This document shows positions 27,665-60,387 of a DNA stretch of 64,000 bases, piece after piece. Below the pieces are notes generated by a model. That model had not been told where the DNA came from, ran no database searches, and worked only from the letters and a program-made list of their open reading frames with translations. Numbering within the stretch: position 1 is the stretch's first letter; every line of letters begins with the position of its first letter. Position numbers and translations under genes: made by a program. The stretch is from an uncultured Acidimicrobiia bacterium (lineage in GTDB: Bacteria; Actinomycetota; Acidimicrobiia; Spongiisociales; Spongiisociaceae): positions 1,231 to 65,230 of the forward strand of contig CAZEZF010000002.1 of assembly GCA_964516495.1 (NCBI GenBank), given 5' to 3'.

Positions 27665-27959
27665 ATGCTATGTTGTCTTGAGCGGACAACCTTGACTCTC
27701 GATGATGATGTAGCGGCGGCTCTCAGGGAACGGACCCGGCTCACCGAACAGACATTCAAGCAGGTCGTCAATGACACCTTGCGGCGAGGCCTTTCCCCGG
27801 CGCAACCGGAGGCGAAAGCGGGTTACCGTCGTCAGGGTCCACCACGGTGGATTCCTATCTGGAGTCGATCCATTACGCCTGAACCAACTCAACGATTCGC
27901 TTGAGGCCGCCGGGTTCGCCGGCTCACCACTTTCACGGGATGTCCCGACCTTAGGGTGA
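27665..27959 (+). pseudogene. vapB: VapB-type (RHH, RTTLTLDDD) antitoxin gene with a frameshift near 27828; its 3' end is overlapped by a MITE
   Basis: ERTTLTLDDDVAAALRERTRLTEQTFKQVVNDTLRRGL in one frame continues as VVRVHHGGFLSGVDPLRLNQLNDSLEAAG in the +1 frame (track ORFs 27665 and 27771). Confidence 0.6.
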
Positions 27960-28068
27960 TGGGGGCGCCCCGTCCAGACGAGGCCGTCACACAGCTATCT
28001 TCCCAGGTCATGTGGTTAATTTCACCTCGCTCGGCTACCCATCCAAACCCCTGCATGAAAAATTGGGG
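27935..28068 (-). mobile_element. MITE family A copy 6, diverged/partial, inserted at the vapB-vapC junction (TTAA at 28069-28072); left boundary approximate
   Basis: 28068 leftwards matches the first ~100 nt of other copies (ccccaatttttcatgcaggggtttggatgggtagccgag...); weaker similarity further left. Confidence 0.55.
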
Positions 28069-28085
28069 TTAACGGAACGGAGCAA

Positions 28086-28403
28086 GTGGGGATTGCATGG
28101 ATCGTGGCGGCAGGGTTCGTGCGGTTACTCACCCACCCCAACGTTCTCAGTACCCCGGCGACACCGGAACACGCCGTTGACACCATGGCGGAGTGGTTCA
28201 TTTCGCCCGGCGTCATACCCCTGAACCCGGGAACGCGGCGCCTTACGATCTTCCGCCACATGCTTTCGGCCGCCGGAGTAGGCGGGAACCTTGTTACTGA
28301 CGCTCACATCGCTGCGCTCGCTATCAAGTATCAGGCCGAGGTCCACTCCAACGATCGCGATTTTATGCGCTTCCCCGGTTTGCGTTGGCGTAACCCTCTC
28401 TGA
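28086..28403 (+). pseudogene. vapC: VapC (PIN) toxin gene lacking its first ~35 codons (MxLVDANVLLYAV... missing)
   Basis: C-terminal two-thirds of PIN domain incl. GNLVTDAHIAALAIKYQAEVHSNDRDFMRFPGLRWRNPL; paralogue of 29151..29579. Confidence 0.65.
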
Positions 28404-28515
28404 TCTCCCCTCCGTCGGCGTTGTCTGACCTGATGCAGGCCGAAGGTGGACCAGTCGGCTTTGTGGGCCTACGTTGTCGGTTGTCTCCGAGATCGGTGAC
28501 GGACAGGATTCTTAC

Positions 28516-28875
28516 TTACAGGCGTACCGCGGGCAGTCGCTTTAGTTCTTCCCGCTGAGGATCAACCACGAAGCCCCCGGATTCGAGTGCGGTTACGGCC
28601 AGTAGTGGTTCTACACCTTCCTCGCCGAAGACCACCATGTTCGCTACAAATACACCTTCGAACTCCAGCACCGCCGCGCTGATGTCATAGGTGACGATCC
28701 TCCCATCGGCCGTCTCGTAGTCGCGGTTGGAGATAGGCGCCAGCCCGATCGACTCCAGGTACGATCTCGGCGCTACCGAGTCGAATGCGCCGGTGTCGAC
28801 CAGGAACCTACCGGTCCATGACCGGTCGAGATCAGCCGGATTCCGAACTGTCACATCAACATGGGTCATCCCCAC
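28516..28875 (-). CDS. Retropepsin-like (clan AA) aspartic protease, copy 1
   Basis: Catalytic VDTGAFDS (D-T-G-A) motif, 119 aa; about 80 percent identical to 31157..31516 with co-duplicated 5' and 3' flanks. Confidence 0.7.
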   Translation of the reverse strand: MGMTHVDVTVRNPADLDRSWTGRFLVDTGAFDSVAPRSYLESIGLAPISNRDYETADGRIVTYDISAAVLEFEGVFVANMVVFGEEGVEPLLAVTALESGGFVVDPQREELKRLPAVRL

Positions 28876-29097
28876 AGGATACCCTCCTTGGTATCGAAAA
28901 CGTAGTAATCAATAATAGATTATTAACATATAATTACAAGACCAATGAGGTAGGACAGTCGGATAGAATGAGTCGGCGCCGAACGTGGTCGGCGTCCGTG
29001 GAAGACCTGTGACACGCCACCCCCGAACCGTGGACTCGTCTACTCAAAGACTTTCTGATAGCAATACATCAGTCAAGTCGATGCTATAACTGTCAGA

Positions 29098-29579
29098 ATG
29101 CGAACGACTGTGACGCTCGACGCGGACACCCAACAGATTGACAGGGGATCGTGAAGCTCGTCGATGCGAACGTACTTCTGTATGCTGTCAACGGCGACGC
29201 GCCCCACCACTGGACGCCGCCAAACGGTGGCTCGACGGCGCACTCAACGGCGGGGCGACGGTTGCCTTTGCCTGGGTCGTCTTACTGGCCTTCATCCGGC
29301 TGGCTACCGCGCGCAGCATCTTCACCCGACCACTACGACCGCAAGAGGCGATAGCGCAGGTAGTTGACTGGACATCGCAGCCAACCGCTGTTGTCGTGGA
29401 GCCCACCGTCCGGCATCCTCATCTCGTTGAACGGTTACCGGCGCCGAGCGGGCCGGGTGGGAACCTCGTCAACGACGCGCATCTGGCTGCGCTCTCCGTC
29501 GAACACCGGTGTGAAGTCGTAACCCTTCGATCGTGACTTCGCCAGATTCGAGGGCATCCGCACCCGACTTCCGGTTTGA
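29098..29579 (+). pseudogene. vapC: vapB remnant (18 codons, 29098-29154) plus vapC (PIN) with two frameshifts (about 29212 and 29524)
   Basis: VKLVDANVLLYAVNGDAPHH | DAAKRWLDGALNGGATVAFAWVVLLAFIRLAT...GNLVNDAHLAALSVEHRCEVVT | FDRDFARFEGI read in three frames; GTGA start/stop overlap with the MRTTVTLD remnant. Confidence 0.65.
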
Positions 29580-29804
29580 TCCCGACGACTCGAAAAGGCG
29601 CCATCAACATGTTGCGAAGGTCAGGTTCGAGGGCGTCCTCACGAAGAAGATAGAATCCTTAGCGTAGAGTAGTGAGAATTAGTAGTGTAGTAATGCGTGA
29701 ACTTATAGTGCTGACATAGCCTACGGTATCGGGTGACCAGTATCCGTATCGGGAGGACTACTGGGCCACCTGCGGCGCCGGGTAGTCGTTCAAGGGGACG
29801 AAGT

Positions 29805-31100
29805 ATGGCCGACACGGAGAAAACAACGTACCGCCCTCGGGTGGTCGATAAGGAGTTGGATTGGTTGCTGTCCGGACTTCCGGCTATCAGTATCAACGGT
29901 CCGCGCGCCGTGGGAAAAACCAGCACCGCCCTCCGGCGCGCTCGGACCATCCACAGCCTGGACGACCCCCAGACGTTGGCGCTGACCCTGGCCGATCCCG
30001 GCCGCTTGACAGCCGGGGAGCGTCCGGTGTTGATCGACGAATGGCAACTCTATCCCCCTGCGTGGGATCTGGTACGGCGCGCTGTGGACGCCGACCCTGC
30101 GCCGGGCGGGTTCATTCTCACCGGTTCCACGGCTCCGGAGACACCCCCGACGCACTCTGGCGCCGGACGCATCATCGTGTTGAGGATGAGGCCGATGGCA
30201 TTGAGCGAGCGCGGCCTTGAAGCGTCGACCGTGAGCCTGCGCGCCATGCTGGAAGGGAACCAACCCCCGGTGAAGGGACGGACCGGCGTAGGTCTGGCGG
30301 ACTACGCCCGGGAGATAGTCTCCGGAGGCTTTCCGGGCATGCAACACGCCGACCCCGAACTCCAGTCGGCTTACCTCGACGGCTATCTCGACATGGCTAT
30401 CGACCATGATGTAGCCCTGATGGGTTACCGGGTTCGCCGGCCGGTTATGATGCGACGCTGGCTGGCCGCTTACGCCGCGGCGACTGCAACCACCGCGACT
30501 TACGAGGCCATTCTGGATGCGGCCACTCCCGGAGAGGGCCAGAAACCGGCGAAGACCACGACGGCGGCCTATCGCGACCTACTGGAGGCGATGTGGTTGG
30601 TGGAGCCGGTCTCCGCCTGGCAACCGCGTGGCAATCCCCTACGACGACTCAAGCGGGGGCCGAAACATCATCTGGCCGACCCTTGCCTCGCCGCCCGGCT
30701 GATGGGAGTAACGGAAGCCTCGTTGGTCTCGCCCCTTCCGAAGGAGAGGGCGCATCCTGCTCCGTTTGCCAAAGGTCCTCTGCTGGGCGCATTGTTCGAA
30801 TCGCTGGTTACCCAGAGCGTTCGCGTCTACGCCCAATCTGCCCGGGCGCGGGTGGGCCACCTGCGAACCTGGAATGACGTTCGCGAAGTCGATCTGATTG
30901 TCGAGCGAGAGGACAAGGTGCTCGCAATCGAGGTCAAACTCGTTGCCGCCCCCACTCGTTCCGACACCGCCCACCTACGTTGGCTCGCTGACCAGATGGG
31001 CTCTGAGGTCTGCGATACCATGATCGTGACCACCGGCCGGCACGCCTATCGGGATCAGGACGGAGTAGCCGTGGTTCCCGCCGCGTTGCTAGGTCCCTGA
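29805..31100 (+). CDS. COG1373-type AAA+ ATPase (AAA_14 + DUF4143 architecture)
   Basis: Walker A GPRAVGKTS, Walker B VLIDEWQ, C-terminal DUF4143-like region. Confidence 0.6.
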   Translation: MADTEKTTYRPRVVDKELDWLLSGLPAISINGPRAVGKTSTALRRARTIHSLDDPQTLALTLADPGRLTAGERPVLIDEWQLYPPAWDLVRRAVDADPAPGGFILTGSTAPETPPTHSGAGRIIVLRMRPMALSERGLEASTVSLRAMLEGNQPPVKGRTGVGLADYAREIVSGGFPGMQHADPELQSAYLDGYLDMAIDHDVALMGYRVRRPVMMRRWLAAYAAATATTATYEAILDAATPGEGQKPAKTTTAAYRDLLEAMWLVEPVSAWQPRGNPLRRLKRGPKHHLADPCLAARLMGVTEASLVSPLPKERAHPAPFAKGPLLGALFESLVTQSVRVYAQSARARVGHLRTWNDVREVDLIVEREDKVLAIEVKLVAAPTRSDTAHLRWLADQMGSEVCDTMIVTTGRHAYRDQDGVAVVPAALLGP

Positions 31101-31156
31101 ACTCTCGTCCTTCCTATACAGTCTCCGAGTTGATTCGAGTCGGACCGGGGATCTAC

Positions 31157-31516
31157 CTACAAGCGCACCGCGGGGAGTCGGGTGAGTTCTTCCCTCCGGG
31201 GGTCTACTCGGAATCCACCGGATTCGAGTGCGGTGACGGCGAGGAGCGGTTCCACGCCCTCCTCGCCGAAAACCACGGTGTTTCCGACCAGGACTCCCTC
31301 GAACTCCAGTTCCGCCACGCCGATGGCATAGGTTACGGAACTTCCGTCCGCGAGTTCGTACTCACGGGTGGATCTGGGCTTGATTCCTATCGCCTCGAGA
31401 ACCGATCGCGGTATTACCGAGTCGTAGGCGCCGGTGTCCACCAGGAACCGGCCTGTCCATGACCGACCGAGATCAGCCGGATTCCGAACCGTCACATCAA
31501 CGTGAGTCATCCCCAC
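31157..31516 (-). CDS. Retropepsin-like (clan AA) aspartic protease, copy 2
   Basis: VDTGAYDS motif; 119 aa; duplicated with promoter/RBS region (31517-31595) and 3' flank. Confidence 0.7.
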   Translation of the reverse strand: MGMTHVDVTVRNPADLGRSWTGRFLVDTGAYDSVIPRSVLEAIGIKPRSTREYELADGSSVTYAIGVAELEFEGVLVGNTVVFGEEGVEPLLAVTALESGGFRVDPRREELTRLPAVRL

Positions 31517-31573
31517 AGGTTAACCTCCTTGGCTCCGAAACGTAGTAGTCCATAATAGGGCACTGACATACGA

Positions 31574-34500
31574 TTACAAGGGCACGGAGGCGGGGCGGTT
31601 AGAGATGGTCGGTTCGACGGCCAGCCTTCTGCGCCACTCGACAATCTCTTCCTCATCGAAGTCGAGGGCCATCGCAGCGGCCCGGTCGATGATCCGGCGC
31701 GCCTGACATTCTTGACCTAGCGACAGGGGGAGCATCTCGAGGTCGGCGGCCTGCTCCCATGCCTCCGCGAGGTGTGACCAGGCAGAGTTGTCGGGTCTGG
31801 GTACTCCGACCTGCCGTAGCTGCGCCAACGACCACGATGGATACGTCAGTTTCTTCGTGCGGAGGTTGAGTAGCATGAGTCGGACGGGAGTGGAGTTCCA
31901 CCATGCCACCAACGCCTTGCCTTCCGGTTTCCCGGAGACCGCAACCGGGATCCATCCTGACCCGATGGACGGTGTCGGCGACCAGAGAGCCGTTAGACGC
32001 CCGCTGATAGTGTCGTAACGCTCGGTGACTAGAGTGTGACTGCGCATCTCCCAATACCGACGAGCTAGGTGTGACTTGTCGGCCTTGGGATAGCCTTGAT
32101 GGTCTGGCGTACCCGCCATCCGCCGGTGGATCTTGGCGGCGATTGACCAGAACAGGGGAACTGTCTCCGGGTCTACCTCAGCGGACTTACGATAGGTATC
32201 GCGTATTCCCCGCCCTGATGGGCCGATCCAGTGGTGAAGGCCGATCGGTTCCAAGTTTGGCGACAGGTTGATTAGGTAGGTTGCCTCGGCAAGTTGACCG
32301 TCGAACCACTGCACTGGCGCCCAGTCGCCGGCTTGGACGCGGTCGGCCGGCCAGAACGTGCGGCTGCCCCACTCGGTAGCGTTCCTTTGTGCGATGGCGT
32401 CTGCTGCTGCAAGGGTTTCTTCCGGGCTGGTTGGCATTCTGCGTAACGCGAAGAACTCGGTCTCGGGGGGGGGGTGTTGATTCGACGCGCTATCAGCAGG
32501 CACTCGTGTATGCCGGTGTTCTCGGAGAAGTTTATGCGTTTGGGGTCGTGCGAGGTGATGATCCGTTCGATGTGGAACCGCTTCGCCAAGAAAACACGCT
32601 CTTCCACACCCGACGACCCGATGCAACCTGTCGCCGGAACAACTTTCGCGAGCGTTCCCGCTGTGGTCCCATTCCTGTCAGATGGCGAATCCGTACCCTC
32701 TTCACCCGCGTACGGATCCCGGAGGAGGCGGTCGGCGAGGGGAGTGAAGAAGGTGCTGACGCTGTTGACGTTGACAACCTGTCCGGCTTCATGGTCAGAT
32801 TGGGATAGATGATCGCGCAGGCTCAACTCGTACTGCTGCATCTGTCTCACCTGTTCAGAGGTGTATTGGCGGCCTCGCTTCACGTTGTTGGTGAAAGGTG
32901 GGTTCATGATGACCAGGTCGAGGTTGCCGGTCGGTAGCTCGGTCTCCTCATCGCTCACCTGGGTAGCGCCAAGTCCCAGCCGGGTTGCCAGAGGACGTAC
33001 CAGGCTTGCCAACGAGTCCGCATCTTCGGCGGCGCCGAGAATCTCCAACGAACCGGCTTTGACCTCACCGTCCGGTTGCGGACCGTGTTTCAGGGTGAAT
33101 AAGTTTATCCGTCGGTAGTCAACCGTCGGGGCGCCCAAGGTCAGGTTGCAGGCGGCCATCTGCACGGCGTAGCGGTTGATGTCAAGGCCGTAGATCACGT
33201 TCTCGACCAACGCCTTGTGGAACCCGGCCATGTCGTCCTCGCTCATCTGACGAGCTTCTCGTACACGGGACTTCATCACTTGCAGGGCGGCCATGAGCAG
33301 CGTTCCGGTGCCGCAGGCCGGATCCATGATTCTCAGTCGATTTACCTGTTCGGTGTCGTTCCATTCAACAAAGTCCTCGCTGATGGCGAGCCGGGCCAGT
33401 AGTAGCGCCGAGATGTTGTTGGTGTAATACGAGCCGGTCGCAGCGGCGTTGGGCAGGATGCGGTGGTAGAGCGGTCCGGCATGGTCGTAACCCAACTCGC
33501 TGAGCGAGGTGGCCGTTCGGTTGGCGCACTCGGCGAGTATGCATAGGGCGTGGCTTACGAAGCGCCGCCGGGGTAGGGTGGCGAGAACTGCCACGGCGGG
33601 TTCGAACACCGGTTTGTAGTCCTGTTCCAGGATTTTCTCCCAGTCGCGGACCAACGCCTCGGCGGGGTACTCGTCGCCCGACACCCGGGCCAGGTCGTCC
33701 AGCCAACCCATGTGCGCCACATCGGCCAGCCTACGGTGTAATAGGCAGGCGTTGGCGACCAGGAGTGCGGCGATCTTGCAGATATCGCGCTCGTTCCGGT
33801 CAACGCTCAAGCCCATGGCGGTTGCCAGGTCGGTAGCCAGGTCTCCCTCCTTGAAGAGCCCGGCCGCTCGCCGTACCGCATGGGTGATCTCGTCGGCTAC
33901 CAGCAGACCAGGTGTTCCCAGACCGGAGGAGGCCACCACATGAGCGAAGATGCCGCGTCCGACCTCCTTGAGATCAAGCGTCAACTGATCCGGGATGTAG
34001 TCCTCTTCGGATGACGGGTCGTCTCCGGTCGGTTCCTGGACGGAGACGAAGCGAAGCGGGTCCTCCGCGAGACGCCCGTCGTGGGACTGAAGCGCCCGCA
34101 ATACCTGGCCGACGGCCTTGTAGCCCTGGCTGCCTTCAGAGAGCGCGGTGGTCAGGTCCTCGCCGGGGGAGATCGGGATCGGCACGATTACATACCCGAG
34201 CCGCTTGCCCTCGCTACGCCGCATAACCCGACCAACCGCCTGGACGATGTCCACCTGGCTGTCCCTCGGCTCCATAAAGACAATGGCGTTCAGCGACGGA
34301 ACGTCGACACCTTCGCTGAAGAGCTTCACGTTGCACAGAACCCGGGCGGTGTCGCCGTCGCCGGCTCGACGAAGCTTCCGAAGGGCCTGGTTGCGCTGGA
34401 AGGCGCTGTTGGCGCCGTCGAGATGTTTGGCGTCGATCTTCAAGGAGGACTCGGCGTCGCGTCGACCCCGGCGTACCCGGCGGGTAATGAGAGATCTGAG

Positions 34501-35985
34501 TTCGGGATGCGCCAGAGCTTCGGCGAAGAACTTGGAGCGTTTGATCGAGTTGGCAAAAGCGATGGTGCGGTGTAGTCGCCCCGGGCGCTCCAACGATGCG
34601 CCTTCCGCCACGCCGTTGATAGCCAGGGCGGTTCCCAACAGGCGGGTCGCTTCGGTGCTGGTGACGGTCAGGGGCTTTCCCCGCCCCGTGCTCAGCTGTT
34701 CGCCGAGGGAGACCAGGCGCCTCCACATGCCCTCAGGGACGTCCCGGTCGCGGACGCCGAGCACGATCACCCGGTAGTCGGAGAGCATCTCGTGGTTAAC
34801 GGCGTCTTTGAAGGACAGGAGGTCCAGTTCCGGTCCGTACACCTCCAAGTCGGACATGTCCACCGTCTCGATACCCCGGGCTTTGAGTGAACCGCGAGAC
34901 CTGGCCGTGTAGATACGCGGCGTGGCGGTCATATAGAGGCGTTTGGAAGCTGACAGCAGGTCATCGTGATGCACCGCCTGGAACCCGTTGAAGTCCTTGA
35001 TCTGTGAGCCGGCCCGATCCACGCCGGTGGTGCGATGCGCCTCGTCGCACAGCACCAGATCGAAGGAGGGGGTCTCGTGTTTCTGCTGGGCCTCGGTCAG
35101 GCGCCGGAGTGACTGGTAGGTGGAGAACACCACCCGAGTGTTGCTGGTTTCCGGTTTTGGGGCCATCAAATCGGCCAACTTCTTGGGATCGGAAGTGACC
35201 GCGCATTCGAGTTCGGAGAGCTTGATCTCGTTTCCTTCTCCACGACCTCCGGCGGAACGGTCCGAGCAGACGACCCGGCAGTCGAGAGGTCGGAGGGTGT
35301 GCCGTAGCCACTCCCGCCTGGCCTGCGAGACGAGGGCGATGCTCGGGGCGAGGAACAGGATTCGACCACCGTCGGGAACCACCTGCTCCGCTATCCGGAG
35401 TGCGGTGAACGTCTTGCCCGTGCCGCACGCCATGGTGAGGCGGCCCCGGTGATGGTATTGCAGACCCTTCACGACTTTGTCGATCGCCTCCTGCTGGCGC
35501 GGCCACGGTCGGCGTACCGGGCGACCGTCGCCCGGTACGGTGAGCGGATCGTTCTCATGCCGCAGGAAGTCGATCCGTCGAACGGGTGGCTCAGCCCCTT
35601 CGACAGCCGCCTCGGCTGCCTTTGTCCAATCACTGGTGGCGATAATCCAACGCATGGAGTAGACCGACTGCTGGGTGAAACCAAGGAAAGAGTCGATTGC
35701 CGGCTTCGAGACGCGGGCCTTCTCGGAGTAGCACTTGCATTGAATGGCGATCCATCCGTCGCTTCGATGCCGGGCTACCAGGTCGACTCCCCAGTCGCGA
35801 CCGTCGTGTCCGGTCAACTCCTCCCGTTCCGGCCAGTCCGCCCATCGGTGGACCTTCTCGATCTCGTATTCAGGGTTTGCCAAGAGAACCTGGCTGACAA
35901 GGTTCTCGAACCATCGACCCTTCTCACTCTCGTCACGGCTTTCCCGTCGGATCCGATCCAGCGCCTCGCCAATCGTCGAAACCAT
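31574..35985 (-). pseudogene. Type ISP-like single-polypeptide restriction-modification enzyme (Mrr-cat nuclease - SF2 helicase-like ATPase - gamma-class N6-adenine MTase - TRD), reading frame broken at a C10 homopolymer (phase-variable, pseudogene or sequencing error)
   Basis: Mrr-like D...QCK (GVDLVAR...IAIQCKCY); Walker A MACGTGKT and DEAH box LVLCDEAHR; MTase motif I MDPACGTGTLL and motif IV VIMNPPFTNN; 1237-aa frame degenerates into low complexity after INTPPP while the overlapping 350-aa frame (HPPPETEFFALRRMPTSPEE...) continues as a plausible TRD. Confidence 0.7.
32465..32474. repeat. G10 (C10 on coding strand) homopolymer tract at the frameshift point of the RM gene
   Basis: tctcGGGGGGGGGGtgttga; both overlapping frames translate it as PPP. 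Confidence 0.9.
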
Positions 35986-36184: not shown

Positions 36185-36345
36185 GAGTTCCCGAAAGGGG
36201 TGACTGGCTACTTGAATGTTTCCGCTAGATTGTCCTCCTACGTCTGCGAAAGACCGATGGAAGGTAGGGCTGTGGTTCATTTTGATGCGTCAGCGAGCCT
36301 TCGTTGCTCCTCCGGCGATTACATCTCCACTCGGGGATCCATCAC
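36185..36345 (+). repeat. Repeat B1: partial duplicate of promoter and 5' end of the 37569 gene (contains a 54-codon remnant ORF 36257..36421)
   Basis: About 80 percent identity to 37497..37650 incl. ttgaatgtttccgctagattgtcctcctacgtctgcgaa and ATGGAAGGTAGG start. Confidence 0.7.
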
Positions 36346-36481: not shown

Positions 36482-37450
36482 ATGCCTCCCGCGGTCCGGA
36501 TGGGCTTCCAGGTATGGGCACAGCATGTGTCCTGGGCGGAACTGATGGGCGCGGCCACATCGATAGAGGGCCGCGGCTTCGACAGCCTGTGGAGCAACGA
36601 TCACTTCTTTCCGATCGCAGGCTATGAACTCGACGTCAACCAGCGCCTGGAAGGTCCGATCTTCGAGGGATGGACGGTCCTGTCCGGTTTCGTCGCCCAT
36701 ACCAACGCCGTCCGGGTGGGATGTATGGTCTCAGCGGCGGGTTTTCGCAACCCCGGCTTGCTGGTGAAGATGGCAACGAGTCTGGATCATGCGTCGGGTG
36801 GCCGCCTGGTGTTGGGTATCGGCGCCGGATGGTACGAACGGGATCACATAGCGTTCGGGCTCGATCACCCGACAGTCGGAGAGCGTCTCGATCGATTGGA
36901 TGAGACGGTCGTGGCTATCAGAAGGTTGCTCGACGGCGAGACGGTGTCGATGGAGGGTAGATGGGTTCGGATGGTGAAAGCGCGCAACGATCCCCCTCCG
37001 CTTCAGAAGAACATGCCGTTGCTGGTCGGAGGCAGCGGCGAGCGGCGTAGTCTACCGTTAGCGGCTCGGTTCGCCGACTGGTGGAACGGTGAGGGGACCC
37101 CTGAGGAGATCGCCCGCAAGAACGTGCTCCTTGATCGGATGACCGAAGCTGCCGGGAGACGTCCGGCCGACCTCATCAGGACAGTGGGGTTACCCAATCC
37201 GCTAATCCGCAGTTCCCGGGCCGAAGCGGCGGAGGTCGCGGCCGCAATCCTGGCGAGACATGGCATGCCCGCCGGACAGGCGTGTGCTGCGGCCGTCAGG
37301 TCACCCTTGGTCGGGCCCTCGGATCAGGTCGCCGCCTATCTCCGCCGGTACGCGGAAGTCGGCGTAGCCGAAGTGGTCTTCGACTGGCCCTCTCCCTTCG
37401 ATGTGGAAACCCTTGACGCACTGGCGATCCTTCGCCGGGAAATGGGTTGA
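36482..37450 (+). CDS. LLM-class flavin/F420-dependent oxidoreductase
   Basis: FDSLWSNDHFF..., LVLGIGAGW motifs of luciferase-like monooxygenase family. Confidence 0.65.
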   Translation: MPPAVRMGFQVWAQHVSWAELMGAATSIEGRGFDSLWSNDHFFPIAGYELDVNQRLEGPIFEGWTVLSGFVAHTNAVRVGCMVSAAGFRNPGLLVKMATSLDHASGGRLVLGIGAGWYERDHIAFGLDHPTVGERLDRLDETVVAIRRLLDGETVSMEGRWVRMVKARNDPPPLQKNMPLLVGGSGERRSLPLAARFADWWNGEGTPEEIARKNVLLDRMTEAAGRRPADLIRTVGLPNPLIRSSRAEAAEVAAAILARHGMPAGQACAAAVRSPLVGPSDQVAAYLRRYAEVGVAEVVFDWPSPFDVETLDALAILRREMG

Positions 37451-38327: not shown

Positions 38328-38351
38328 TCAAATGCCGGCTGAATTACGATA

Positions 38352-38798
38352 TTGGGATTCTGCATGTTTCTGGCAGTGATGAAAAACGAACCAAAAGGCA
38401 TGGAGTGCGAAGGGGTGATAGAGGCCGCGGAAGCGGGGACTGTTCGGATTGTGACATCCACATGGACCCTTACCGAAGTTATTCGGATTAGGGGGTTGGA
38501 CACCATGACCGAATCCGACGATCATGTGATCAGACGATTCTTTGAACGTGACTATATCGCGCTACGAGCTGTGACAGAGGAGATCGGCCACAAGTCACGA
38601 CGGCTGGTCTGGAAACAACGTTATTCCACCAAGGACGCCATACACATAGCGACCGCCCTGGACGCAAATTGTACCGTCTTCGACACTTTCGACCAGCAGT
38701 TGATCAACCTGGGTGCGCCGACAGGATCTCATCTTCGGATAACGACACCCGATCTACCGAGCCGACCACGCTTGCTGATCAACGGTGCATCTGCATAA
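38352..38798 (+). CDS. PIN-like domain protein (possibly degenerate; N-terminal acidic residue not evident)
   Basis: C-terminal DAIHIATALDANCTVFDTFDQQL resembles PIN motif IV; 24 nt downstream of the hypothetical gene. Confidence 0.35.
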   Translation: MGFCMFLAVMKNEPKGMECEGVIEAAEAGTVRIVTSTWTLTEVIRIRGLDTMTESDDHVIRRFFERDYIALRAVTEEIGHKSRRLVWKQRYSTKDAIHIATALDANCTVFDTFDQQLINLGAPTGSHLRITTPDLPSRPRLLINGASA

Positions 38799-47717: not shown

Positions 47718-47813
47718 TCAATAAATCTCAGAATCAGGACAAGCAACTACCGAGCGTCAGGACCTCTACCGAACCTCGGACGAAGTAGGTCGGTAGACTG
47801 TCCGCCATCTTCC

Positions 47814-52643: not shown

Positions 52644-53182
52644 TGGAGATAGTTAAGCTATTTTCAGGGGCGATAAGTGGGGCAGACTTCGCGGATGATC
52701 CACACTCGGTCAAGTACATGGGCGAGTTGGATCGACACTCCGAAGCCTTCCACCGTCTCTTTGAGCTACTCAATGATCCTGCTAACGAGCAACGCCTCGT
52801 CGATGCCGAGACCCATGATCTGCCGGCCTTGGCCGGCATCGTCCGGTTCGTCGAGGAGGAACCGGCCATCAGGTATGTGCTGTCGCGCGGGCGATCAAGT
52901 CTTCGATTTCGCCAGGCGGTCGGAGTGGCGGTAAAGCTGAAAATGCAGAAGCTCGGCCGGCGTACGACAGGTCGAAAGGGCGTTGTGAAGAGTGCTGTGT
53001 ATTTCACAAGGGCTGAGCGCTATATCGCCGATCCCGACGCCGCTGCTAGTTCCGCGTCAAGTGCGCTTGAGGCACTTGACGCGGTGGCAAGCATGGGCGA
53101 TGAGACGGAACGCCTCCAGACCGGGCGTGAGCTGATGGAGGCCCTGGCGGCGACTCGGCGGAGCGCGGGTCGTCCTTTCTGA
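52643..53182 (+). CDS. Hypothetical protein (179 aa), first gene of a pair with a PIN gene
   Basis: No recognisable domain; stop 3 nt before the GTG of the PIN frame. Confidence 0.35.
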   Translation: MEIVKLFSGAISGADFADDPHSVKYMGELDRHSEAFHRLFELLNDPANEQRLVDAETHDLPALAGIVRFVEEEPAIRYVLSRGRSSLRFRQAVGVAVKLKMQKLGRRTTGRKGVVKSAVYFTRAERYIADPDAAASSASSALEALDAVASMGDETERLQTGRELMEALAATRRSAGRPF

Positions 53183-53184
53183 GG

Positions 53185-53632
53185 TGTTGATACTGCTTGA
53201 CAGCGGTCCGCTGGGGCTTCTTAGCAACCCGACTGTCCGTGGGTCGGGACGCGATGCCCGCGTATGGGCGCGGAACCACCTTGTATCCGGCGCGCTTCTC
53301 ATAGTCCCCGAGATAGCCGACTACGAGTACGCCGTGAGCTGATCAGGGCTGGAAAGCAGATGGGCGTGGCGCGACTCGACGAGTTGTGTGAAAGTTTCGG
53401 TTATCACCCCCTCTCAACCGCGATCATGCGCGATGCAGCGTGGCTGTGGGCTCGGGCTCGTAACCAGGGTTACCCTACGGCTCATGACGCGGCGCTTGAT
53501 GGCGACGTCCTCTTGGCAGCGCAAGCCCGCCGCCTGAAGGCCGAACAGCCTACCGAGACCGTCGTAGTGGCAACTACGAACCCCTCCCACCTAAGGCGGT
53601 ATGTCGATGCCAGGGTCTGGCGCCAGGTGTGA
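53185..53632 (+). pseudogene. PIN-domain (VapC-like) gene with a frameshift near 53330
   Basis: VLILLDSGPLGLLSNP...VPEIADYEY in one frame, continuing RRELIRAGKQ...DAALDGDVLLAAQA...VVVATTNPSHLRRYV in track ORF 53264..53632. Confidence 0.5.
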
Positions 53633-53806: not shown

Positions 53807-53909
53807 AGGAGGGTGCCGGGAAACCCCCGGCTTGGCCCGACATCCGATGGTAAACTCCCTGGTCAGCGGACGGAGGGCCAATCTAATCACCCGTTTTCAG
53901 CACCCTCCT
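53807..53909 (-). repeat. Repeat family C copy 1: about 100-nt structured element closed by GGAGGGUGC/GCACCCUCC pairing, starting at the stop codon of the deaminase gene
   Basis: About 80 percent identical to 63083..63181; internal hairpins (ccggggguuucccgg etc.). Confidence 0.55.
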
Positions 53910-54900
53910 AGGAACTCCAGTATTCCTGCTGGATGGTGGAGGATTCGGCGACCAGGTGGGGTCCCCTCACCTCTATATGGCGCTGACCGGTACCCAGGAT
54001 CTCGCGGCAACCTACACCGCGCATGGTCGGGTTGAGGGGGTTGGCGCCGGTGTATTCCAACAGGTGGTGTTCGCTCATGCCGTACACCAGCCGGTTGAGG
54101 CCGCCCCAGTACATGGATCCGCTGCACATGGCGCAGGGTTCGCAGCTGGTGTAGAGAGTGGCGTCCGCGATCTGTTCGGAAGTGAGTTGGTCCACCGCCA
54201 TTCGCATCAGGTTGGTCTCGGCGTGGTTGAGAGGGCTTTTGCCGGTGATGTCGGAGTTCTCCGCCTCAAGGAGGATGTTTCCATCCGGGTCGGCCAGCAG
54301 CGCCCCGAAAGGCAGGTTTCCGTTGGCCACGGAGCGTTCCGCGACCTTGATCGCCCTCCGCAGCAGTCGCTCATCCATCTCGCTCAGGTCGCCGGTTACC
54401 GGTCGGGGGCCGCCTTCGGCGAAGAAATCGATGTGTACCGCCGACGCCTCCTCGATAAGGTGTGGTCCGCTCACCTCTATATGGCGCTGACCGCTGTCGA
54501 AGATGTTGCGACATCCCACGCCCCGCATCGTGGCCGTGCCGGGATCGCCTCCGGTTATTTCGAGAAGGTCCAACTCGCTCATGGCATAGACCATGCGGTT
54601 GAGCCCGCCCCAGTACATGGCGCCCGAGCACATGGCGCAGGGTTCGCAGCTGGTGTAAAGGGTGGCCTCGGCGATCTGTTCCGGGGTGAGGGTGGTAACC
54701 GCCAGGTTCATGAGGTTGGTCTCCGCATGGTTGAGCGTGTTGCGCCCGGTTACCCCGGTGTTCTCCGCCTCGAGCAGGATGTTTCCGTCACGGTCGGCCA
54801 TGATCGCCCCAAAGGGCATGTTCCCGTTGGATACCGATCTGGCCGAAACCTCGATCGCCTTTCGCAGGAGCCGTTCGTCATGTGAGCTGAGTACTGTCAT
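53908..54900 (-). CDS. Tandem-domain nucleoside/nucleotide deaminase (two CDA-fold TadA/guanine-deaminase-like domains)
   Basis: HAETNLM ... CEPCAMCSG zinc motifs present twice; the two halves are about 75 percent identical (504-bp internal tandem repeat). Confidence 0.7.
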   Translation of the reverse strand: MTVLSSHDERLLRKAIEVSARSVSNGNMPFGAIMADRDGNILLEAENTGVTGRNTLNHAETNLMNLAVTTLTPEQIAEATLYTSCEPCAMCSGAMYWGGLNRMVYAMSELDLLEITGGDPGTATMRGVGCRNIFDSGQRHIEVSGPHLIEEASAVHIDFFAEGGPRPVTGDLSEMDERLLRRAIKVAERSVANGNLPFGALLADPDGNILLEAENSDITGKSPLNHAETNLMRMAVDQLTSEQIADATLYTSCEPCAMCSGSMYWGGLNRLVYGMSEHHLLEYTGANPLNPTMRGVGCREILGTGQRHIEVRGPHLVAESSTIQQEYWSS

Positions 54901-56482: not shown

Positions 56483-57286
56483 TTATGGGGCTTGACCCGC
56501 TGTTGGTGTCTGGTTCAGGTGCATCTTGCGCAGGGAGTGGCGAACCAGATCCTGGGCGGACCTGGCGCTGATGTCCAGGAATCCATCCGGCCAGCCTTCC
56601 GAAAGGCCGCCGTACTCGTTTATCTCCGACTTCCGGTAAGTCGTGATGCCGTCACTCTTCTCCGCGAATAGGAGGGTGACCAGTTCCCTGGTCGTATCGG
56701 TCTCATCTGACGCCACCTGGGTCCGCAGTTGATTGACAAGATGGTCGCTGTGGGTCTCCACGATTATCTGGCGGCCCGCTCGAACGAAAGCCAGGAGGAA
56801 GTCCGCAAGTCGCTTCTGTAGCGCCGGGTGAAGGTGTAACTCCGGCTGCTCGAGTATCAACAGATCCGCCGGAATACTCAACAAGCACTGCAAGATGACC
56901 GGCAGCACCTGACTAACTCCTGTACCGACCGCCGAAAGGTAGACGGGCCTTGGTGCATCGGATACGTGGACGCTCAGAGCCCGCTGTCCATAGCGATCCC
57001 GCACCTCCACGTCCACCGCTTCCGCTATACCGAACCACCGGAGCCACTGGTCCATTGCATCCCGAAACGGAACCAGATCCTCATGACCGGTGGGTAGCGG
57101 GACGTTAACCCACCGATCACTTGATCCATCCAGCACTATGGCCGCGTTCTCGCCGCGGGTACCGACATGTGTATTTTCCAGCCGAGTCATAGACGCAGGT
57201 CCTTCCTGTGGAGATACCCGCACTGGACCTAGATAGTGAAGCCTCGAATCAAGTAGTCCGTCGGACGCAGCCTTCATCCATAACAA
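56483..57286 (-). pseudogene. SMC/ABC-like AAA ATPase (AAA_21 + DUF3696-like) lacking its N-terminal Walker A region
   Basis: LHYLGP, Walker B LLILEQPELHLHP, H-loop ETHSDHL present; P-loop absent; MITE copy 5 lies immediately upstream. Confidence 0.5.
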
Positions 57287-57604
57287 TGGGTGGTCCTCCT
57301 CCGAGGCATTTTGTTTGTCCTAAACGTCGATCAACCAGCATCCGGCGTCTTCGGCAACCCGGATCATGCTGTCTCTGGTTCTCTCATACACATAGGAGGC
57401 GGAGACCGTTTGATGGTCTGGGCGTATCTTTAGTTCTCCGGCCTCGGTCTTTCGACCCGACTCCAACCCATCACCCGTTGCTTCGACACCGAAGTTCCCT
57501 GGAAGCGTGAGCGTAGTGAGCGCCCCTTCTATCAGAGGCCAGAAGGACTCGTAGTGGGCATGACCTAGTGTCCCGAATGTCTCGACCCAGTTGTCGACCC
57601 TTAA

Positions 57605-57805
57605 CCCTGATTCTTCATGCCCCAGACACACCGACCTCAAAAAGGCCATGTCAAGCGCAGCACCGTGGGGCGTCCCGGCGTTCACCTCAGGGTGAAGGGT
57701 AACACCCCAGCCAGGCGGGGCCACCAAGCGGCTATCTTCCCAGGTCAGAGAGTTTATTGCATCTTTCTCGGCTACCCAATCAAACCCCTGCATGAAAAAT
57801 TGGGG
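57605..57805 (-). mobile_element. MITE family A copy 5 (201 bp), perfect TTAA target duplication (57601-57604 / 57806-57809)
   Basis: Full-length, both TIRs. Confidence 0.8.
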
Positions 57806-57970
57806 TTAATGCCCCGACAGCCTCCAATTCCTTCACATCATCCAAGGTGAGCATCACTTCGTAGCTGGTTGCCAGGTTCAATAACCGTTGCAATACGGTC
57901 CCGAGGTTACCGCAGGAGTTAAGAAGTTCCAGAGCCAAGCAAACCGGGATCGAGTTGGAGGGGCGGTCCC

Positions 57971-58489
57971 TCATAGAGAAGAGCGGAGGTACAGTCGGCA
58001 GCCGGGCTTCTGACAGATGCGCCCTCTTGGGATTTGAAGTCCCCATCTGGGGTCGAATCGGCCGCGGAGCGGTAAACCGGTGGAAATGTCCTCCCAGTCA
58101 CATGGCTGGCCGATCGCGACATCACCGACTGCTTCCAGGCTCTCAGGAGCAATCGCGCCGGTCAGGTTTCTCATCTGGTCTTCCCAGATGACGGAGCGCG
58201 TATCAGTCTGGACGACGACGGTGTAAGGCAAGGTGGAGCTTTCTGGTGGGATGGTGAGGTCGAAGGCTGTCGCGAGTTCGGTGTTGGAGTGAACGAGCAT
58301 GATCTCGGCAAACCTCCGGAGGTGGTGCGAGTCCAGCCGGAGGACAAGGACCATGCGGTCGAATGTGAACGACGACCCGGTCATGTGAACTGTTCGTAGC
58401 TGTCCAGGTTGTACGTCGATTTGAACAGGCGGTAACCTGCGGCGGGTATGCCCGGCCAATGCGGCTTTGATCGCTCGGGGTACGCTCAT
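57971..58489 (-). CDS. Hypothetical protein (extent uncertain)
   Basis: Long ORF without recognisable domain in a decayed region. Confidence 0.2.
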   Translation of the reverse strand: MSVPRAIKAALAGHTRRRLPPVQIDVQPGQLRTVHMTGSSFTFDRMVLVLRLDSHHLRRFAEIMLVHSNTELATAFDLTIPPESSTLPYTVVVQTDTRSVIWEDQMRNLTGAIAPESLEAVGDVAIGQPCDWEDISTGLPLRGRFDPRWGLQIPRGRICQKPGCRLYLRSSL

Positions 58490-58904
58490 GTGTCTGTACT
58501 TCCGCCAAGCGATGAACTGATCGCGGCAAGCAACTCCTCCATCACCGCAACGTGGTGGCTTGCGTCGAAGCGGCCCAACAGGTCCGTCGCCAATCGACGG
58601 AGAACCCTCCGTTTCCGCTGTGCAACCCAGGGCCTTTGATCGTCCAAGACGTGCGGCCACCTCCCCGTCTGCGATACCCTGGCTTTTGCTCATAATGATC
58701 CACTGCTCAGGCTCACCGAGGTCTAGCGCGAAAACCTCCACCGCTGTTTCATCTCGACATCTTCCAGTGCTGCCCCGGGAGTCGGCTTGTCCGACGGGTA
58801 GTCCCTCTCAGTATTTGAAGGAACGTTGGAAGCCACGATGTCAACAACTTCTCGAGAATCCGCGCCAAGTCCCGTTCGCTTATGGTGCTGACCTCGTCTC
58901 TTGT

Positions 58905-59510
58905 CTAGTCCTGTGAAGTCGCTACCAGGTTCAGTAGATATGGATCGGTGATCGGGGTCTGGGTTATTTCCGCTATGCGGTAGCCGGATAGCGCTTCTTC
59001 TATCGCCGCCGCGATGGCGGGCGCCGGACCGATGATCCCGGCCTCGCCGGCGCCTTTCGCTCCCCAGGGCATCTCAGGCGCCGGTGATTCGAAGTGAAGG
59101 ACCGTCATATCCGGGATCTCCGTGGTGGTGGGGAGGTGATAGTCGAGGAATGAGGTTGACAGAGGGTTAGCCCACTCGTCGTAGTGGAGTTTCTCGAGCA
59201 GCGCCCCTCCTATACCCTGGGCTATCCCGCCGACCACCTGGCCTCTGACGATCTGGGGGTTGATCACCGTGCCGCAATCAAGGGCGACTATGTATTCGAG
59301 CACCCGGACCTGGCCGGTCCCGACATCGACCGAGACGATCGCGGCGTGGGAGGCGTTGGTGTAGGTGGCGGCTGCGTTGACCCGCCCGTACTCGTCCGGT
59401 ACGTGCTCGATTCCGGGAGGGTCATAGGTGGCGGTCGCTTCCAAGCCCGGATCGACGCCCGAAGGCAGGTCAACGGTCCTGATGTTGGCGCGCGGTGGTG
59501 ATCGGCACAC
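58905..59510 (-). pseudogene. C-terminal ~200-aa fragment of a second xanthine-dehydrogenase-family Mo-binding large subunit
   Basis: VDVGTGQVRVLEYIVALDCGTVINPQIVRGQVVGGIAQGIGGALLE...WGAKGAGEAG aligns with the C-terminus of the intact 40422..42797 product. Confidence 0.65.
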
Positions 59511-60387
59511 CGATCCTGCTGGCCGGTCTCGGAGAGATGATGACCGAGCACTCCGGGGTGATGAACCTGGGTGTGGAAGGAATGATGCTCGGAGGGGGAG
59601 TGGTGGGTTTCTGGATGAGCACCCAGCATGCGTCGATACCTATGGCGGTGGGGGCGGGTGTCGGGGCGCTGTTCGCGCTGATTCATGCTTATCTGGCGGT
59701 CACCCTGCGCGTCAACCAGATCGTCTCCGGATTGGCGCTGGTAATGACCGGAACCGGGTTCGCCGGTTTCGTGGGCAGTTTGGCCGACTCCGCCCTCATC
59801 TACGCTCGGCCTGTGTCTTCTTTCGGGCCGGTCTTCGGCGAGTGGCTTCGGGAGTCGCCGCTGGTCGGGCCCTTGATATTCGGTCACGACTGGGTCGTAT
59901 ACATGTCGTGGGTTCTCGTGGCTTTGGCTGCCTTCTGGTTGTTCCGGACCAGGGCGGTTCGGGCGGTGGGGGAAGATCCCGCGGCGGCCGACACGGTTGG
60001 TATTCCGGTTGGGATTACCCGATATGTCTATACGATGATCGGCGGCGCCGGGGCCGGGATGGGGGTACCTACCTGATGGTCGGTATTTTCGCCACCTACC
60101 AGCACGGCATAACGGCCGGTCTCGGTTGGATAGCCTTCGCGCTGGTGATCTTCGCCGGCTGGCGACCGTGGCGAGCCCTGGTAGCGGCGTATGTGTTCGG
60201 CGCCCTCCGTAACCTCGGCTTCTCGCTACAGATTCTGGGCGCCGAGATACCCTCGGACGTATTGAACGCCTTGCCGTTCGTGCTGACAATCGTCGCGCTG
60301 ATAATCATCTCGGCTCGGCCGGCGGCAGCCCGCCGCTACAGCGCACCGTCGGCCCTCGCCGTTCCGTACGCCCGGGAGAGCCGCTGA
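59495..60387 (+). pseudogene. BMP-family (nucleoside/sugar type) ABC transporter permease, N-truncated and frameshifted near 60062 (G-run)
   Basis: ILLAGLGEMMTEHSGVMNLGVEGMML... ends GMGVPT* and continues in the +1 frame as YLMVGIFATYQHG... (track ORFs 59495 and 59428). Confidence 0.55.

What the first reader, a model, noticed from the sequence alone, without database searches (positions are those of the whole stretch)
27665..60387. Six frameshifts, five in accessory genes and one in an ABC permease, at least two at homopolymers: decay versus sequencing error
Frameshifts were inferred in vapB (about 27828), vapC (about 29212 in a G-run and about 29524 in a C-run), the RM gene (C10 at 32465-32474), the PIN gene (about 53330) and the ABC permease (G5-6 run about 60062). 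No frameshift was seen in the metabolic genes read here (gcv, alr, thiolase, ICL, cox, monooxygenase). That bias fits genuine pseudogenisation of toxic or costly accessory genes. The homopolymer context of two or three of the sites is also what systematic sequencing indel errors look like.
Basis: inference. Interest (0 to 1): 0.5.

Follow-up and report, generated by a model that had tools for sequence, protein, structure and literature searches.

The report
Dead toxin genes plus switchable restriction gene
All six frameshifts are in the sequence: five are real, fixed mutations in decaying toxin-antitoxin genes and a relic transporter of an uncultured sponge-associated bacterium, and the sixth sits in a run of ten C's in a restriction-modification gene whose relatives repeatedly carry slippery repeats, so it looks like a reversible on/off switch.

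Summary
All six frameshifts exist at the stated coordinates; each repaired protein aligns end to end with intact homologues. The homopolymer claim is overstated: only two sites are in runs of 5 or more (RM C10; ABC G5, intact state G6). The rest are in runs of 1-3.

Sequencing error is excluded for five sites. Independent Illumina (Logan) assemblies from up to three runs and at least two studies match the window across those sites with no gaps. The ABC permease is an old relic, shared with its 5' breakpoint with a related genome about 80% identical in DNA.

The accessory bias is real and stronger than reported. About 45 metabolic ORFs give full Pfam coverage, and about 15 runs of 6-7 bases lie in intact genes. 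All four PIN genes, both vapB genes and one defence-type ATPase are damaged, two of them next to a MITE-like repeat.

The RM gene is different. It is a Type ISP-like single-polypeptide enzyme whose only lesion is the C10. C11 or C8 restores 1470 or 1469 aa. An orthologue has C11 in frame at the same codons and another has C17 out of frame. Frame-shifting repeats are 7.8-fold enriched in this gene family (p = 6e-6). The best reading is the OFF state of a phase-variable RM gene. Within-population tract variation was not testable.

The parts
27665..27959 (+). vapB1 antitoxin pseudogene. One extra base in CGTCGTC at 27827-27833; the 3' end runs into the MITE-like repeat.
   Evidence: The identical sequence is in Logan contig L093.
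27929..28074 (-). Truncated copy of a 205-225 bp MITE-like repeat. It replaces the vapB1 3' end and about the first 30 codons of vapC1.
   Evidence: VapC1 matches only TIGR00028 positions 32-141 of 143.
28068..28403 (+). vapC1 (PIN toxin) remnant that lacks its N-terminus.
   Evidence: (PIN 24-118/120).
29098..29154 (+). vapB2 remnant of 18 codons (MRTTVTLDADT...), consistent with an internal deletion of about 200 bp.
   Evidence: The identical sequence is in Logan contig L089.
29151..29579 (+). vapC2 (PIN toxin) pseudogene with two frameshifts: one base missing at 29210/29211 and one extra C in CCC at 29523-29525.
   Evidence: Repaired protein matches TIGR00028 3-140/143 at 145 bits. L089 is 100% identical over 28046-31499.
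31574..35985 (-). Type ISP-like single-polypeptide restriction-modification gene: Mrr nuclease, SF2 ATPase, N6-adenine methyltransferase and a C-terminal target-recognition part. As assembled it reads as 1237 aa (the last 67 out of frame) followed by an intact frame of 297 codons.
32465..32474 (-). C10 tract (G10 on the + strand) at codons 1170-1173 (T-P-P-P). This is the only lesion in the RM gene. C11 or C8 restores the frame.
   Evidence: L094 has C11 in frame at the same site and L002 has C17 out of frame.
38332..38798 (+). Third PIN-domain gene, with a probable one-base loss at 38367-38370 that separates the first catalytic Asp (YWDSACF) from the rest.
   Evidence: The Pfam PIN match extends from 8-117 to 3-117 and gains 3.4 bits on repair. 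Suggestive only.
53172..53632 (+). VapC-family PIN toxin pseudogene, one base missing at about 53327 (GAG|TAC).
   Evidence: Three Logan contigs from three runs are identical across the site.
56483..57596 (-). AAA_15/AAA_21 + DUF3696 defence-type ATPase remnant. No Walker A region, an in-frame stop at 57320-57322, and a MITE-like copy at 57597-57823 at its 5' side.
58905..59510 (-). CoxL-type molybdopterin subunit, C-terminal fragment only (201 aa; MoCoBD_2 positions 174-283 of 283).
   Evidence: Present identically in Logan contig L091.
59495..60387 (+). Lone, 5'-truncated ABC permease relic (BPD_transp_2), with one G lost from a G6 run (G5 at 60061-60065).
   Evidence: The orthologous relic in L084 has the same 5' breakpoint, G6 at this site and its own lesions. 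L091 is 100% identical.

Best explanation
The window comes from an uncultured, probably Acidimicrobiia, bacterium found in marine sponge metagenomes. Two processes produced the frameshifts.

(1) Ordinary gene decay. This is shown by independent assemblies and by comparison with a related genome. Chromosomal toxin-antitoxin modules (all four PIN toxins, both VapB antitoxins), a defence-type ATPase, and two gene relics (CoxL fragment, ABC permease) lie in variable islands between conserved metabolic operons. They have accumulated fixed inactivating lesions: single-base indels outside meaningful homopolymers, deletions, an in-frame stop, and, beside two of them, a MITE-like repeat.

(2) Repeat slippage. 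This part is inferred. The Type ISP-like RM gene is interrupted only by its C10 tract, between the methyltransferase core and the target-recognition part. Strand slippage during replication changes the tract length. C11 or C8 gives the full 1470/1469-aa enzyme (ON). C10 gives a product without the target-recognition part, so both methylation and restriction would be lost together (OFF), which would be safe for the cell. The assembled consensus is therefore most likely the majority OFF phase of a phase-variable defence gene, not a dead gene and not a miscall.
For: Decay:
- Repaired proteins are collinear with intact homologues.
- Logan/Illumina contigs L086-L089, L091 and L093, from four runs, match the window with no gaps across five of the sites.
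- SRR8304783-86 are among the Mix-51-derived runs deposited with the Autometa paper, which include two Hippospongia lachne sponge metagenome samples sequenced on Illumina NovaSeq (PMC6547426).
- Synteny with L084 and L085 places the PIN gene and the 54.9-59.5 kb block in variable spots.
- The ABC relic is shared with L084, which has independent lesions.
- About 45 metabolic ORFs have full Pfam coverage.
- About 15 runs of 6-7 bases sit in intact genes.

Switch:
- C10 is the only run longer than 7 in 64 kb.
- Both parts of the gene are free of stops.
- At the same codons, L094 has C11 in frame and L002 has C17 out of frame.
- The frame breaks exactly at a repeat in L019 (G27), L022 (C13) and L021 ((CCGA)x9), with no other lesion. 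In L008 the break lies next to an 8-mer x4 repeat.
- Tracts of C9 to C19 lie at the 5' end in L001, L003, L007, L008 and L009.
- There are 14 frame-shifting repeats in 112 kb of gene against 7 in 436 kb of flanks, a 7.8-fold excess with binomial p = 6e-6.
Against: - No read-level data or second assembly covers the RM tract. Exact look-ups of the RM fragments found only the NCBI contig, so tract heterogeneity within the population is unproven.
- Every orthologue with a mid-gene repeat is OFF as assembled.
- The two in-frame cases have another lesion elsewhere: L094 has a stop near codon 1373 and L003 has a non-repeat frameshift.
- The tract encodes a proline-rich linker (TPPP, GPPPP, DPPPT in relatives), which could become a homopolymer by chance in a GC-rich genome.
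- A Markov model of base composition gives 0.7 runs of 10 or more per window.
- More distant Type ISP-like genes show no overall repeat enrichment.
- Long homopolymers are error-prone in both HiFi and Illumina assemblies, so individual ON/OFF calls are soft.
Confidence: 0.62

Rival explanations
1. All or most of the frameshifts are sequencing or assembly indel errors, typical of homopolymers.
For: Two sites are in homopolymers: C10, and G5 against G6 in L084. The source is a metagenome-assembled contig. The RM tract could not be checked in a second assembly.
Against: Five sites are reproduced without gaps in independent Illumina assemblies from four runs. Four sites are in runs of 1-3 bases. 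The damaged genes also carry deletions, a repeat insertion and a stop codon. About 15 runs of 6-7 bases in intact genes are undamaged, and about 45 metabolic ORFs are intact.
Confidence: 0.07
2. The RM frameshift is plain, irreversible pseudogenisation. A proline linker encoded by C-rich codons happened to form a slippery run, and the costly RM gene is simply being lost, like the toxin-antitoxin genes around it. There is no selected switching.
For: 11 of 25 orthologous loci are interrupted, several away from any repeat (L003, L018, L020, L024). All mid-gene repeat cases are OFF. The linker is proline-rich in relatives without a tract. H. pylori Type ISP genes carry frameshifts that are not due to repeats (PMC3936762).
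Against: In five repeat-OFF loci the repeat frameshift is the only lesion, whereas the decaying genes here have several. Repeats recur at different positions and with different unit types (homopolymers up to 27, tetranucleotide, octanucleotide, 5' tracts), which a proline linker does not explain. An in-frame C11 exists at the same site.
Confidence: 0.27
3. The C10 allele is still partly functional: slippage by RNA polymerase or the ribosome on the long C run produces some full-length enzyme from the out-of-frame gene.
For: By inference only: long homopolymers are known slippage sites in other organisms (my own knowledge). The downstream frame is fully intact.
Against: Nothing here tests it. 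No recoding signal was looked for or found. By my own knowledge, well-documented transcriptional slippage mostly involves A/T runs.
Confidence: 0.04

Closest known systems
Type ISP restriction-modification enzymes LlaGI and LlaBIII (Lactococcus; PDB 5ffj, 4xqk)
   Same: A single polypeptide with an N-terminal Mrr-family nuclease, an SF2 helicase-like ATPase (Walker A MACGTGKT, DEAH), an N6-adenine methyltransferase (DPACGTG, NPPF) and a C-terminal recognition region. These are the top PDB sequence hits for residues 4-640.
   Different: Only the N-terminal 640 residues are detectably similar by sequence. The methyltransferase and recognition halves are divergent. The protein is about 100 aa shorter than LlaBIII. 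I found no report of repeat tracts in the lactococcal enzymes.
Repeat-driven phase-variable RM genes: Type III mod 'phasevarions', Type I hsdM/hsdS, and the Type IIG cj0031 poly-G gene of Campylobacter jejuni (PMC5909438, PMC7383803, PMC4889913)
   Same: A frame-shifting simple repeat inside the ORF of a methyltransferase-bearing RM gene. Tract lengths differ between relatives, giving in-frame and out-of-frame states.
   Different: Those cases are in cultured, host-adapted pathogens, with switching shown experimentally. Here the enzyme class is Type ISP-like, the hosts are uncultured marine and sponge-associated bacteria of several phyla, and switching is inferred only from comparative data. 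A full-text search for Type ISP together with phase variation found no such report, and a search for sponge symbionts found none.
Frameshifted Type ISP genes of Helicobacter pylori (HP0667-0669, JHP0612-0613; PMC3936762)
   Same: Type ISP genes found interrupted by frameshifts in natural genomes. Correcting the frameshifts restored methyltransferase activity for the first of these.
   Different: Those frameshifts are stated not to be due to sequence repeats. Here the break is exactly at a C10 tract.
Decaying chromosomal VapBC (PIN) toxin-antitoxin modules, TIGR00028 family
   Same: A vapB-vapC gene pair arrangement. The PIN profile matches over its full length once the frameshifts are repaired.
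   Different: All copies in this window are inactivated, so they are remnants rather than working modules.

Membership tests
Type ISP restriction-modification enzyme | All activities in one polypeptide of about 1400-1600 aa | tested here: met
   Repaired ORF is 1470 aa and collinear with homologues of 1452-1480 aa. As assembled it is split by the C10 tract.
Type ISP restriction-modification enzyme | N-terminal Mrr-family nuclease followed by an SF2 helicase-like ATPase | tested here: met
   Pfam Mrr_cat_2 6e-26, ResIII 6e-25, Helicase_C 3.5e-10. phmmer gives LlaBIII 8e-88 and LlaGI 3e-75 over residues 4-640. D68, Q82, K84, GTGKT and DExH are invariant in alignment A1.
Type ISP restriction-modification enzyme | N6-adenine methyltransferase domain with AdoMet and NPPF motifs | tested here: met
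   Pfam N6_Mtase 2.4e-9 at residues 847-950. DPACGTG and NPPF are present, with D888, P889, G892, G894, N1028 and P1030 invariant.
Type ISP restriction-modification enzyme | C-terminal target-recognition domain related to that of LlaGI/LlaBIII | tested here: inconclusive
   Residues 1170-1470 are conserved within the family. They have no Pfam hit (protein 10) and no PDB sequence hit. No fold comparison was run.
Type ISP restriction-modification enzyme | ATP-driven translocation and cleavage on collision; hemimethylation of an asymmetric site | not testable with these tools
   Biochemical property.
Phase-variable (contingency) locus driven by a simple sequence repeat | A repeat whose unit is not a multiple of 3, inside the ORF or at its 5' end, long enough to slip | tested here: met
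   C10 at codons 1170-1173. It is the only run longer than 7 in 64 kb.
Phase-variable (contingency) locus driven by a simple sequence repeat | Tract-length differences at the same site that give in-frame and out-of-frame alleles | tested here: met
   Met between orthologues only: window C10 OFF, L094 C11 in frame, L002 C17 OFF. These genes are 70-72% identical; they are not strains of one species.
Phase-variable (contingency) locus driven by a simple sequence repeat | Tract-length heterogeneity within one population or clone | not testable with these tools
   No reads are available, and no second assembly of this gene could be retrieved.
Phase-variable (contingency) locus driven by a simple sequence repeat | The gene is otherwise intact, so the state is reversible | tested here: met
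   No stops in either part of the gene. The same holds for L002, L019, L021 and L022.
VapBC type II toxin-antitoxin module | Full PIN-domain toxin with an adjacent upstream antitoxin, both as intact ORFs | tested here: not met
   Homology is clear: TIGR00028 at 145 bits after repair, and VapB homologues. Every copy is broken, however: vapB1 frameshift, vapC1 5' loss, vapB2 deletion, vapC2 two frameshifts. They are pseudogenes of this family.
Sequencing or assembly indel artefact | Not reproducible in independent data; concentrated in homopolymers; spread over all gene classes | tested here: not met
   Five sites are reproduced in Logan/Illumina contigs. Four sites lie in runs of 1-3 bases. No metabolic ORF is affected.

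The most novel reading that the evidence does not exclude
A family of Type ISP-like single-polypeptide RM enzymes is widespread in uncultured marine and sponge-associated bacteria of several phyla (Acidimicrobiia, Gemmatimonadota, Thermoanaerobaculia, Longimicrobiales). It has repeatedly and independently acquired frame-shifting simple repeats at different positions: poly-C/G of 9-27 bases, (CCGA)n, an 8-mer, and 5' tracts. On this reading, defence, and possibly genome-wide methylation, is switched stochastically in symbiont populations. That would extend phase-variable RM systems to a new enzyme class and beyond host-adapted pathogens.
Probability: 0.45. Interest if true: 0.65.

Novelty: new member of a known kind. 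Interest (0 to 1): 0.5.

Why it matters
The decay part is ordinary, though useful for annotation. These ORFs should be flagged as pseudogenes and not 'corrected', and the MAG sequence is reliable at these sites.

The RM part matters more. Repeat-driven phase variation of RM systems is documented for Types I, IIG and III, mainly in cultured pathogens. I found no report for Type ISP enzymes or for sponge or marine symbionts. If it is confirmed, metagenome consensus sequences would systematically hide a switching defence layer. Many 'broken' RM genes in MAGs would then be OFF phases rather than dead genes. That changes how defence repertoires and methylation-based binning of symbiont genomes should be read. 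It is directly testable with existing reads.

Tried and rejected
- My first reading of the vapC1 N-terminus as several frameshifts was wrong. That stretch belongs to a dispersed MITE-like repeat.
- Pfam and NCBIfam gave nothing for the 53.3-kb 'PIN' gene or for vapB1. Both were settled by homologue searches instead.
- The exact look-up of the 1237-aa RM product found no contig on record. Four alternative C-terminal RM ORFs were either absent from the collection or present only in the NCBI contig. I therefore have no independent view of the C10 tract.
- An exact DNA scan of the JGI metagenomes for the tract plus its flank found nothing. The protein-based scan there found only one further full-length orthologue, and it has no repeat.
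- I considered gcvP as a hidden frameshift because its ORFs overlap. I rejected this: it is the normal two-subunit GcvPA/GcvPB arrangement.
- The neighbouring ORF triplets TmoB/MmoB/hydroxylase and CoxE/MoxR/thiolase are separate complete genes.
- The PIN gene of L085 is not homologous to the third PIN gene here, so it could not confirm that frameshift.
- Rfam found no RNA family in the window. The MITE-like repeat does not fold better than shuffled sequence (z = -0.58).
- More distant Type ISP-like genes show no overall repeat enrichment, so the enrichment claim is limited to the orthologous family.

Full report
**What the window is.** GC content is about 61%. The exact 1237-aa truncated RM product exists once in the protein collection, on a 68,131-bp NCBI contig, so the window is from a metagenome-assembled contig. 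The closest isocitrate lyase homologues are 85-87% identical and unnamed. Named ones, at about 75%, are from Acidimicrobiia/Actinomycetia MAGs. PIN homologues come from 'Candidatus Poriferisodalis' and Acidimicrobiaceae MAGs. Short contigs matching parts of the window at 99.9-100% occur in Logan assemblies of SRR8304783, SRR8304785, SRR22586457 and SRR22586461. SRR8304783-86 are among the Mix-51-derived runs deposited with the Autometa paper. Those datasets include two samples of the Hippospongia lachne sponge metagenome FL20-9, sequenced on Illumina NovaSeq (PMC6547426). The paper does not say which run is which sample, so 'sponge-associated' is an inference; the family name is also an inference.

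**Checking the six frameshifts.** Three-frame translation shows each one.
- **vapB1.** The ORF matches 85-90-aa homologues only over residues 7-55. Its C-terminal motif GVDPLRLNQLNDSLEAAGFAGSP lies in the next frame. It aligns almost residue for residue with P0366 once one base is removed from CGTCGTC at 27827-27833.
- **vapC2.** One base is missing at 29210/29211 and one C is extra in CCC at 29523-29525. The doubly repaired protein matches TIGR00028 positions 3-140 of 143 at 145 bits, against a cut-off of 73.6.
- **PIN gene at 53.3 kb.** It has no Pfam or NCBIfam hit. The repaired 153-aa protein nevertheless covers 95-97% of more than 100 homologues of 146-149 aa at 60-75% identity, some annotated as VapC-family toxins.
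- **ABC permease.** The repaired protein matches BPD_transp_2 positions 7-269 of 269. The break is a G5 at 60061-60065.
- **RM gene.** The + strand G10 at 32465-32474 is C10 in the gene. Adding one C, or removing two, gives a 1470/1469-aa protein that aligns across the junction (..HECLLIARRINTPPPETEFFALRRMP..) with some 35 full-length homologues.

So the positions are right. The 'G-run' and 'C-run' in vapC2 are only GG and CCC. Four of the six sites are in runs of 1-3 bases.

- A 205-225-bp repeat with roughly 19-bp terminal inverted repeats (TAACCCCGATTTTTCATGC) occurs six times in the window.
- A truncated copy at 27929-28074 replaces the end of vapB1 and the first 30 or so codons of vapC1. 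VapC1 accordingly matches only profile positions 32-141.
- vapB2 is reduced to 18 codons.
- A third PIN gene (38332-38798) probably lost one base at 38367-38370. This separates the first catalytic Asp from the rest; repair extends the Pfam match from 8-117 to 3-117.
- An AAA_15/21 + DUF3696 ATPase (56483-57596) lacks its Walker A part, has an in-frame stop, and abuts another copy of the repeat.
- A CoxL paralogue survives only as its last 201 aa.

**Is the bias real?** I scanned about 50 ORFs against Pfam. They include proline racemase, MsrA, three luciferase-like monooxygenases, DNA ligase, GcvT/H/PA/PB, alanine racemase, the di-iron monooxygenase operon, CoxMSL, amidohydrolase, nitrilase, SDR, aminotransferase, CoxE, MoxR, thiolase, deaminase, ICL and LysR. 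All give essentially full profile coverage. Overlapping ORFs that looked suspicious are normal gene boundaries. About 15 homopolymers of 6-7 bases lie in these intact genes. Among accessory genes, four of four PIN genes, two of two vapB genes, the RM gene and the ATPase are damaged. Two DUF4143 ATPases and two retropepsin-like genes are intact.

**Decay or error?** Independent assemblies answer this for five sites.
- Logan contig L093 (SRR22586461) equals window 26376-27956 at 100%.
- L089 (same run) equals 28046-31499 at 100%.
- L086, L087 and L088 (three runs) equal 52643/52688/52952-53877 with one mismatch and no gap.
- L091 (SRR8304783) equals 57930-61082 at 100%.

One caveat: I do not know which reads built the NCBI MAG. 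The SRR225864xx contigs may therefore exclude assembler error only. The PIN and ABC sites, however, are also seen in the SRR83047xx runs from the separate Autometa study.

**Synteny** adds to this. In L084 and L085 (ICL 85-86% identical) the order is LysR-ICL-deaminase-thiolase-MoxR-CoxE. The window carries extra material at 52.5-53.9 kb and 54.9-59.5 kb. L084 holds the same ABC relic with the same 5' breakpoint (window 59495). It has G6 where the window has G5, plus its own stop codon, an indel and a deletion of about 390 bp. The permease was therefore already dead in the common ancestor of two genomes about 80% identical in DNA.

**The RM gene.**
- **Architecture.** Mrr_cat_2, ResIII/Helicase_C, N6_Mtase, then about 300 family-specific C-terminal residues. 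The best PDB sequence matches are the Type ISP enzymes LlaBIII and LlaGI, over residues 4-640.
- **The lesion.** C10 is the gene's only lesion; both parts are free of stops. This contrasts with the multiply damaged genes around it.
- **Same-site tracts.** Three of the closest orthologues carry a tract at the same codons: window C10 (out of frame), L094 C11 (in frame, the length I had predicted as ON) and L002 C17 (out of frame).
- **Breaks at repeats elsewhere in the family.** L019 breaks at G27, L022 at C13 and L021 at (CCGA)x9. L012 ends in (ACCG)x8 at the same site as L021. In L008 the break lies next to an 8-mer x4 repeat.
- **5' tracts.** L001, L003, L007, L008 and L009 have C9-C19 at the 5' end. 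In L007-L009 the tract follows a conserved putative start (T/G)TG AGC CTN CCN TTC GCT, and in L003 it directly follows the ATG.
- **Enrichment.** Counting repeats whose unit is not a multiple of three gives 14 in 112 kb of gene (12 of 25 loci) against 7 in 436 kb of flanks. That is a ratio of 7.8 with binomial p = 6e-6.
- **Distant relatives.** Genes sharing only the N-terminal half show no overall enrichment. Five of them do carry very long repeats in the C-terminal third: (GACA)x20, (ACGAC)x11, (CGAGC)x10, (CAGGA)x23 and C11 twice.

**Mechanism proposed.** Slipped-strand mispairing changes the C-tract length. C11 or C8 gives the full enzyme. C10 ends translation 67 codons later and removes the recognition part, so methylation and restriction would be lost together. 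This step is inferred, not shown.

**Reasons for caution.**
- No reads or second assembly cover the tract.
- All mid-gene repeat cases are OFF as assembled.
- The two in-frame cases have another lesion elsewhere.
- The tract encodes a proline-rich linker.
- Many orthologues (11 of 25) are interrupted, some away from repeats, so simple loss of a costly gene remains a serious rival.
- Consensus lengths of long homopolymers are unreliable.

**Comparison with what is known.** Repeat-driven phase variation is established for Type III mod genes, Type I hsdM/hsdS and the Type IIG cj0031 gene (PMC5909438, PMC7383803, PMC4889913). For Type ISP, the only natural frameshifts I found described, in H. pylori, are stated not to be due to repeats (PMC3936762). 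Full-text searches found no report of phase-variable Type ISP enzymes, nor of phase variation in sponge symbionts. These searches cover only the held library.

**Verdict.** The finding as written is largely ordinary: real pseudogenes, not errors. One component, the C10 in the RM gene, is better explained as a probable new member of the phase-variable RM systems.

Noticed in passing
window 2046-2269, 6912-7125, 7264-7470 (+); 27929-28074, 47584-47721, 57597-57823 (-): A dispersed 205-225-bp MITE-like repeat with roughly 19-bp terminal inverted repeats (TAACCCCGATTTTTCATGC / GCATGAAGAATCAGGGTTA). There are six copies in 64 kb and two abut damaged accessory genes. It is absent from all 170-odd related loci fetched, has no Rfam match, and does not fold better than shuffled sequence.
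   Followed up: partly
window 28516-28875 (-) and 31157-31516 (-): Two intact paralogous 119-aa retropepsin-like aspartyl protease genes (DNA 77% identical over 428 bp). Each sits just downstream of a vapBC remnant. Function and any link to the toxin-antitoxin modules are unknown.
   Followed up: no
window 53908-54900 (-); L085 11457-12369: A 330-aa protein with two tandem cytidine/deoxycytidylate deaminase domains; the two halves are 75% identical in DNA. L084 has the same fused gene, whereas L085 has two separate genes of 137 and 162 aa.
   Followed up: no
window 26393-26800 (+): A 135-aa protein matching Ribosomal_L22 (1.7e-14) lies inside the soluble di-iron monooxygenase operon, next to an Fe-S assembly protein. 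This is an odd place for an L22-like gene. The same arrangement is in Logan contigs L092 and L093.
   Followed up: no
window 4461-5669 (+): A 402-aa ORF whose only clear match is the last 45 or so residues of cysteinyl-tRNA ligase (CysS_C), plus a weak cyanophycinase-like stretch. It may be a fusion or a remnant.
   Followed up: no
window 47176-47274, 53807-53910, 63083-63182: A second short repeat of about 100 bp (76-81% identical) lies at the ends of three genes. It may be a shared terminator or another small mobile element.
   Followed up: no
L021 13979-14014 and L012 8113-8144: Two Thermoanaerobaculia MAGs carry a tetranucleotide repeat, (CCGA)x9 and (ACCG)x8, at the same position (about query residue 1355) of the RM orthologue. 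L021 changes frame there, and the L012 contig ends in the repeat.
   Followed up: partly
L018 10001-14411 and 15417-19199: A Spirochaetia MAG has two tandem copies of the RM orthologue, each about 40% identical to the query.
   Followed up: no
L026 13957-14036; L039 13943-14152; L049 4617-4666; L056 14154-14268; L029 10944-10987: More distant Type ISP-like genes carry very long repeats about 4 kb into the gene: (GACA)x20, (ACGAC)x11 twice, (CGAGC)x10, and (CAGGA)x23 in Acetobacter fabarum. A Corynebacterium has two C11 runs. These suggest wider repeat-driven switching in this enzyme class.
   Followed up: partly
window 36191-36335 and 37502-37646: A 146-bp direct repeat (83% identical) flanks the luciferase-like monooxygenase gene at 36482-37450.
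   Followed up: no
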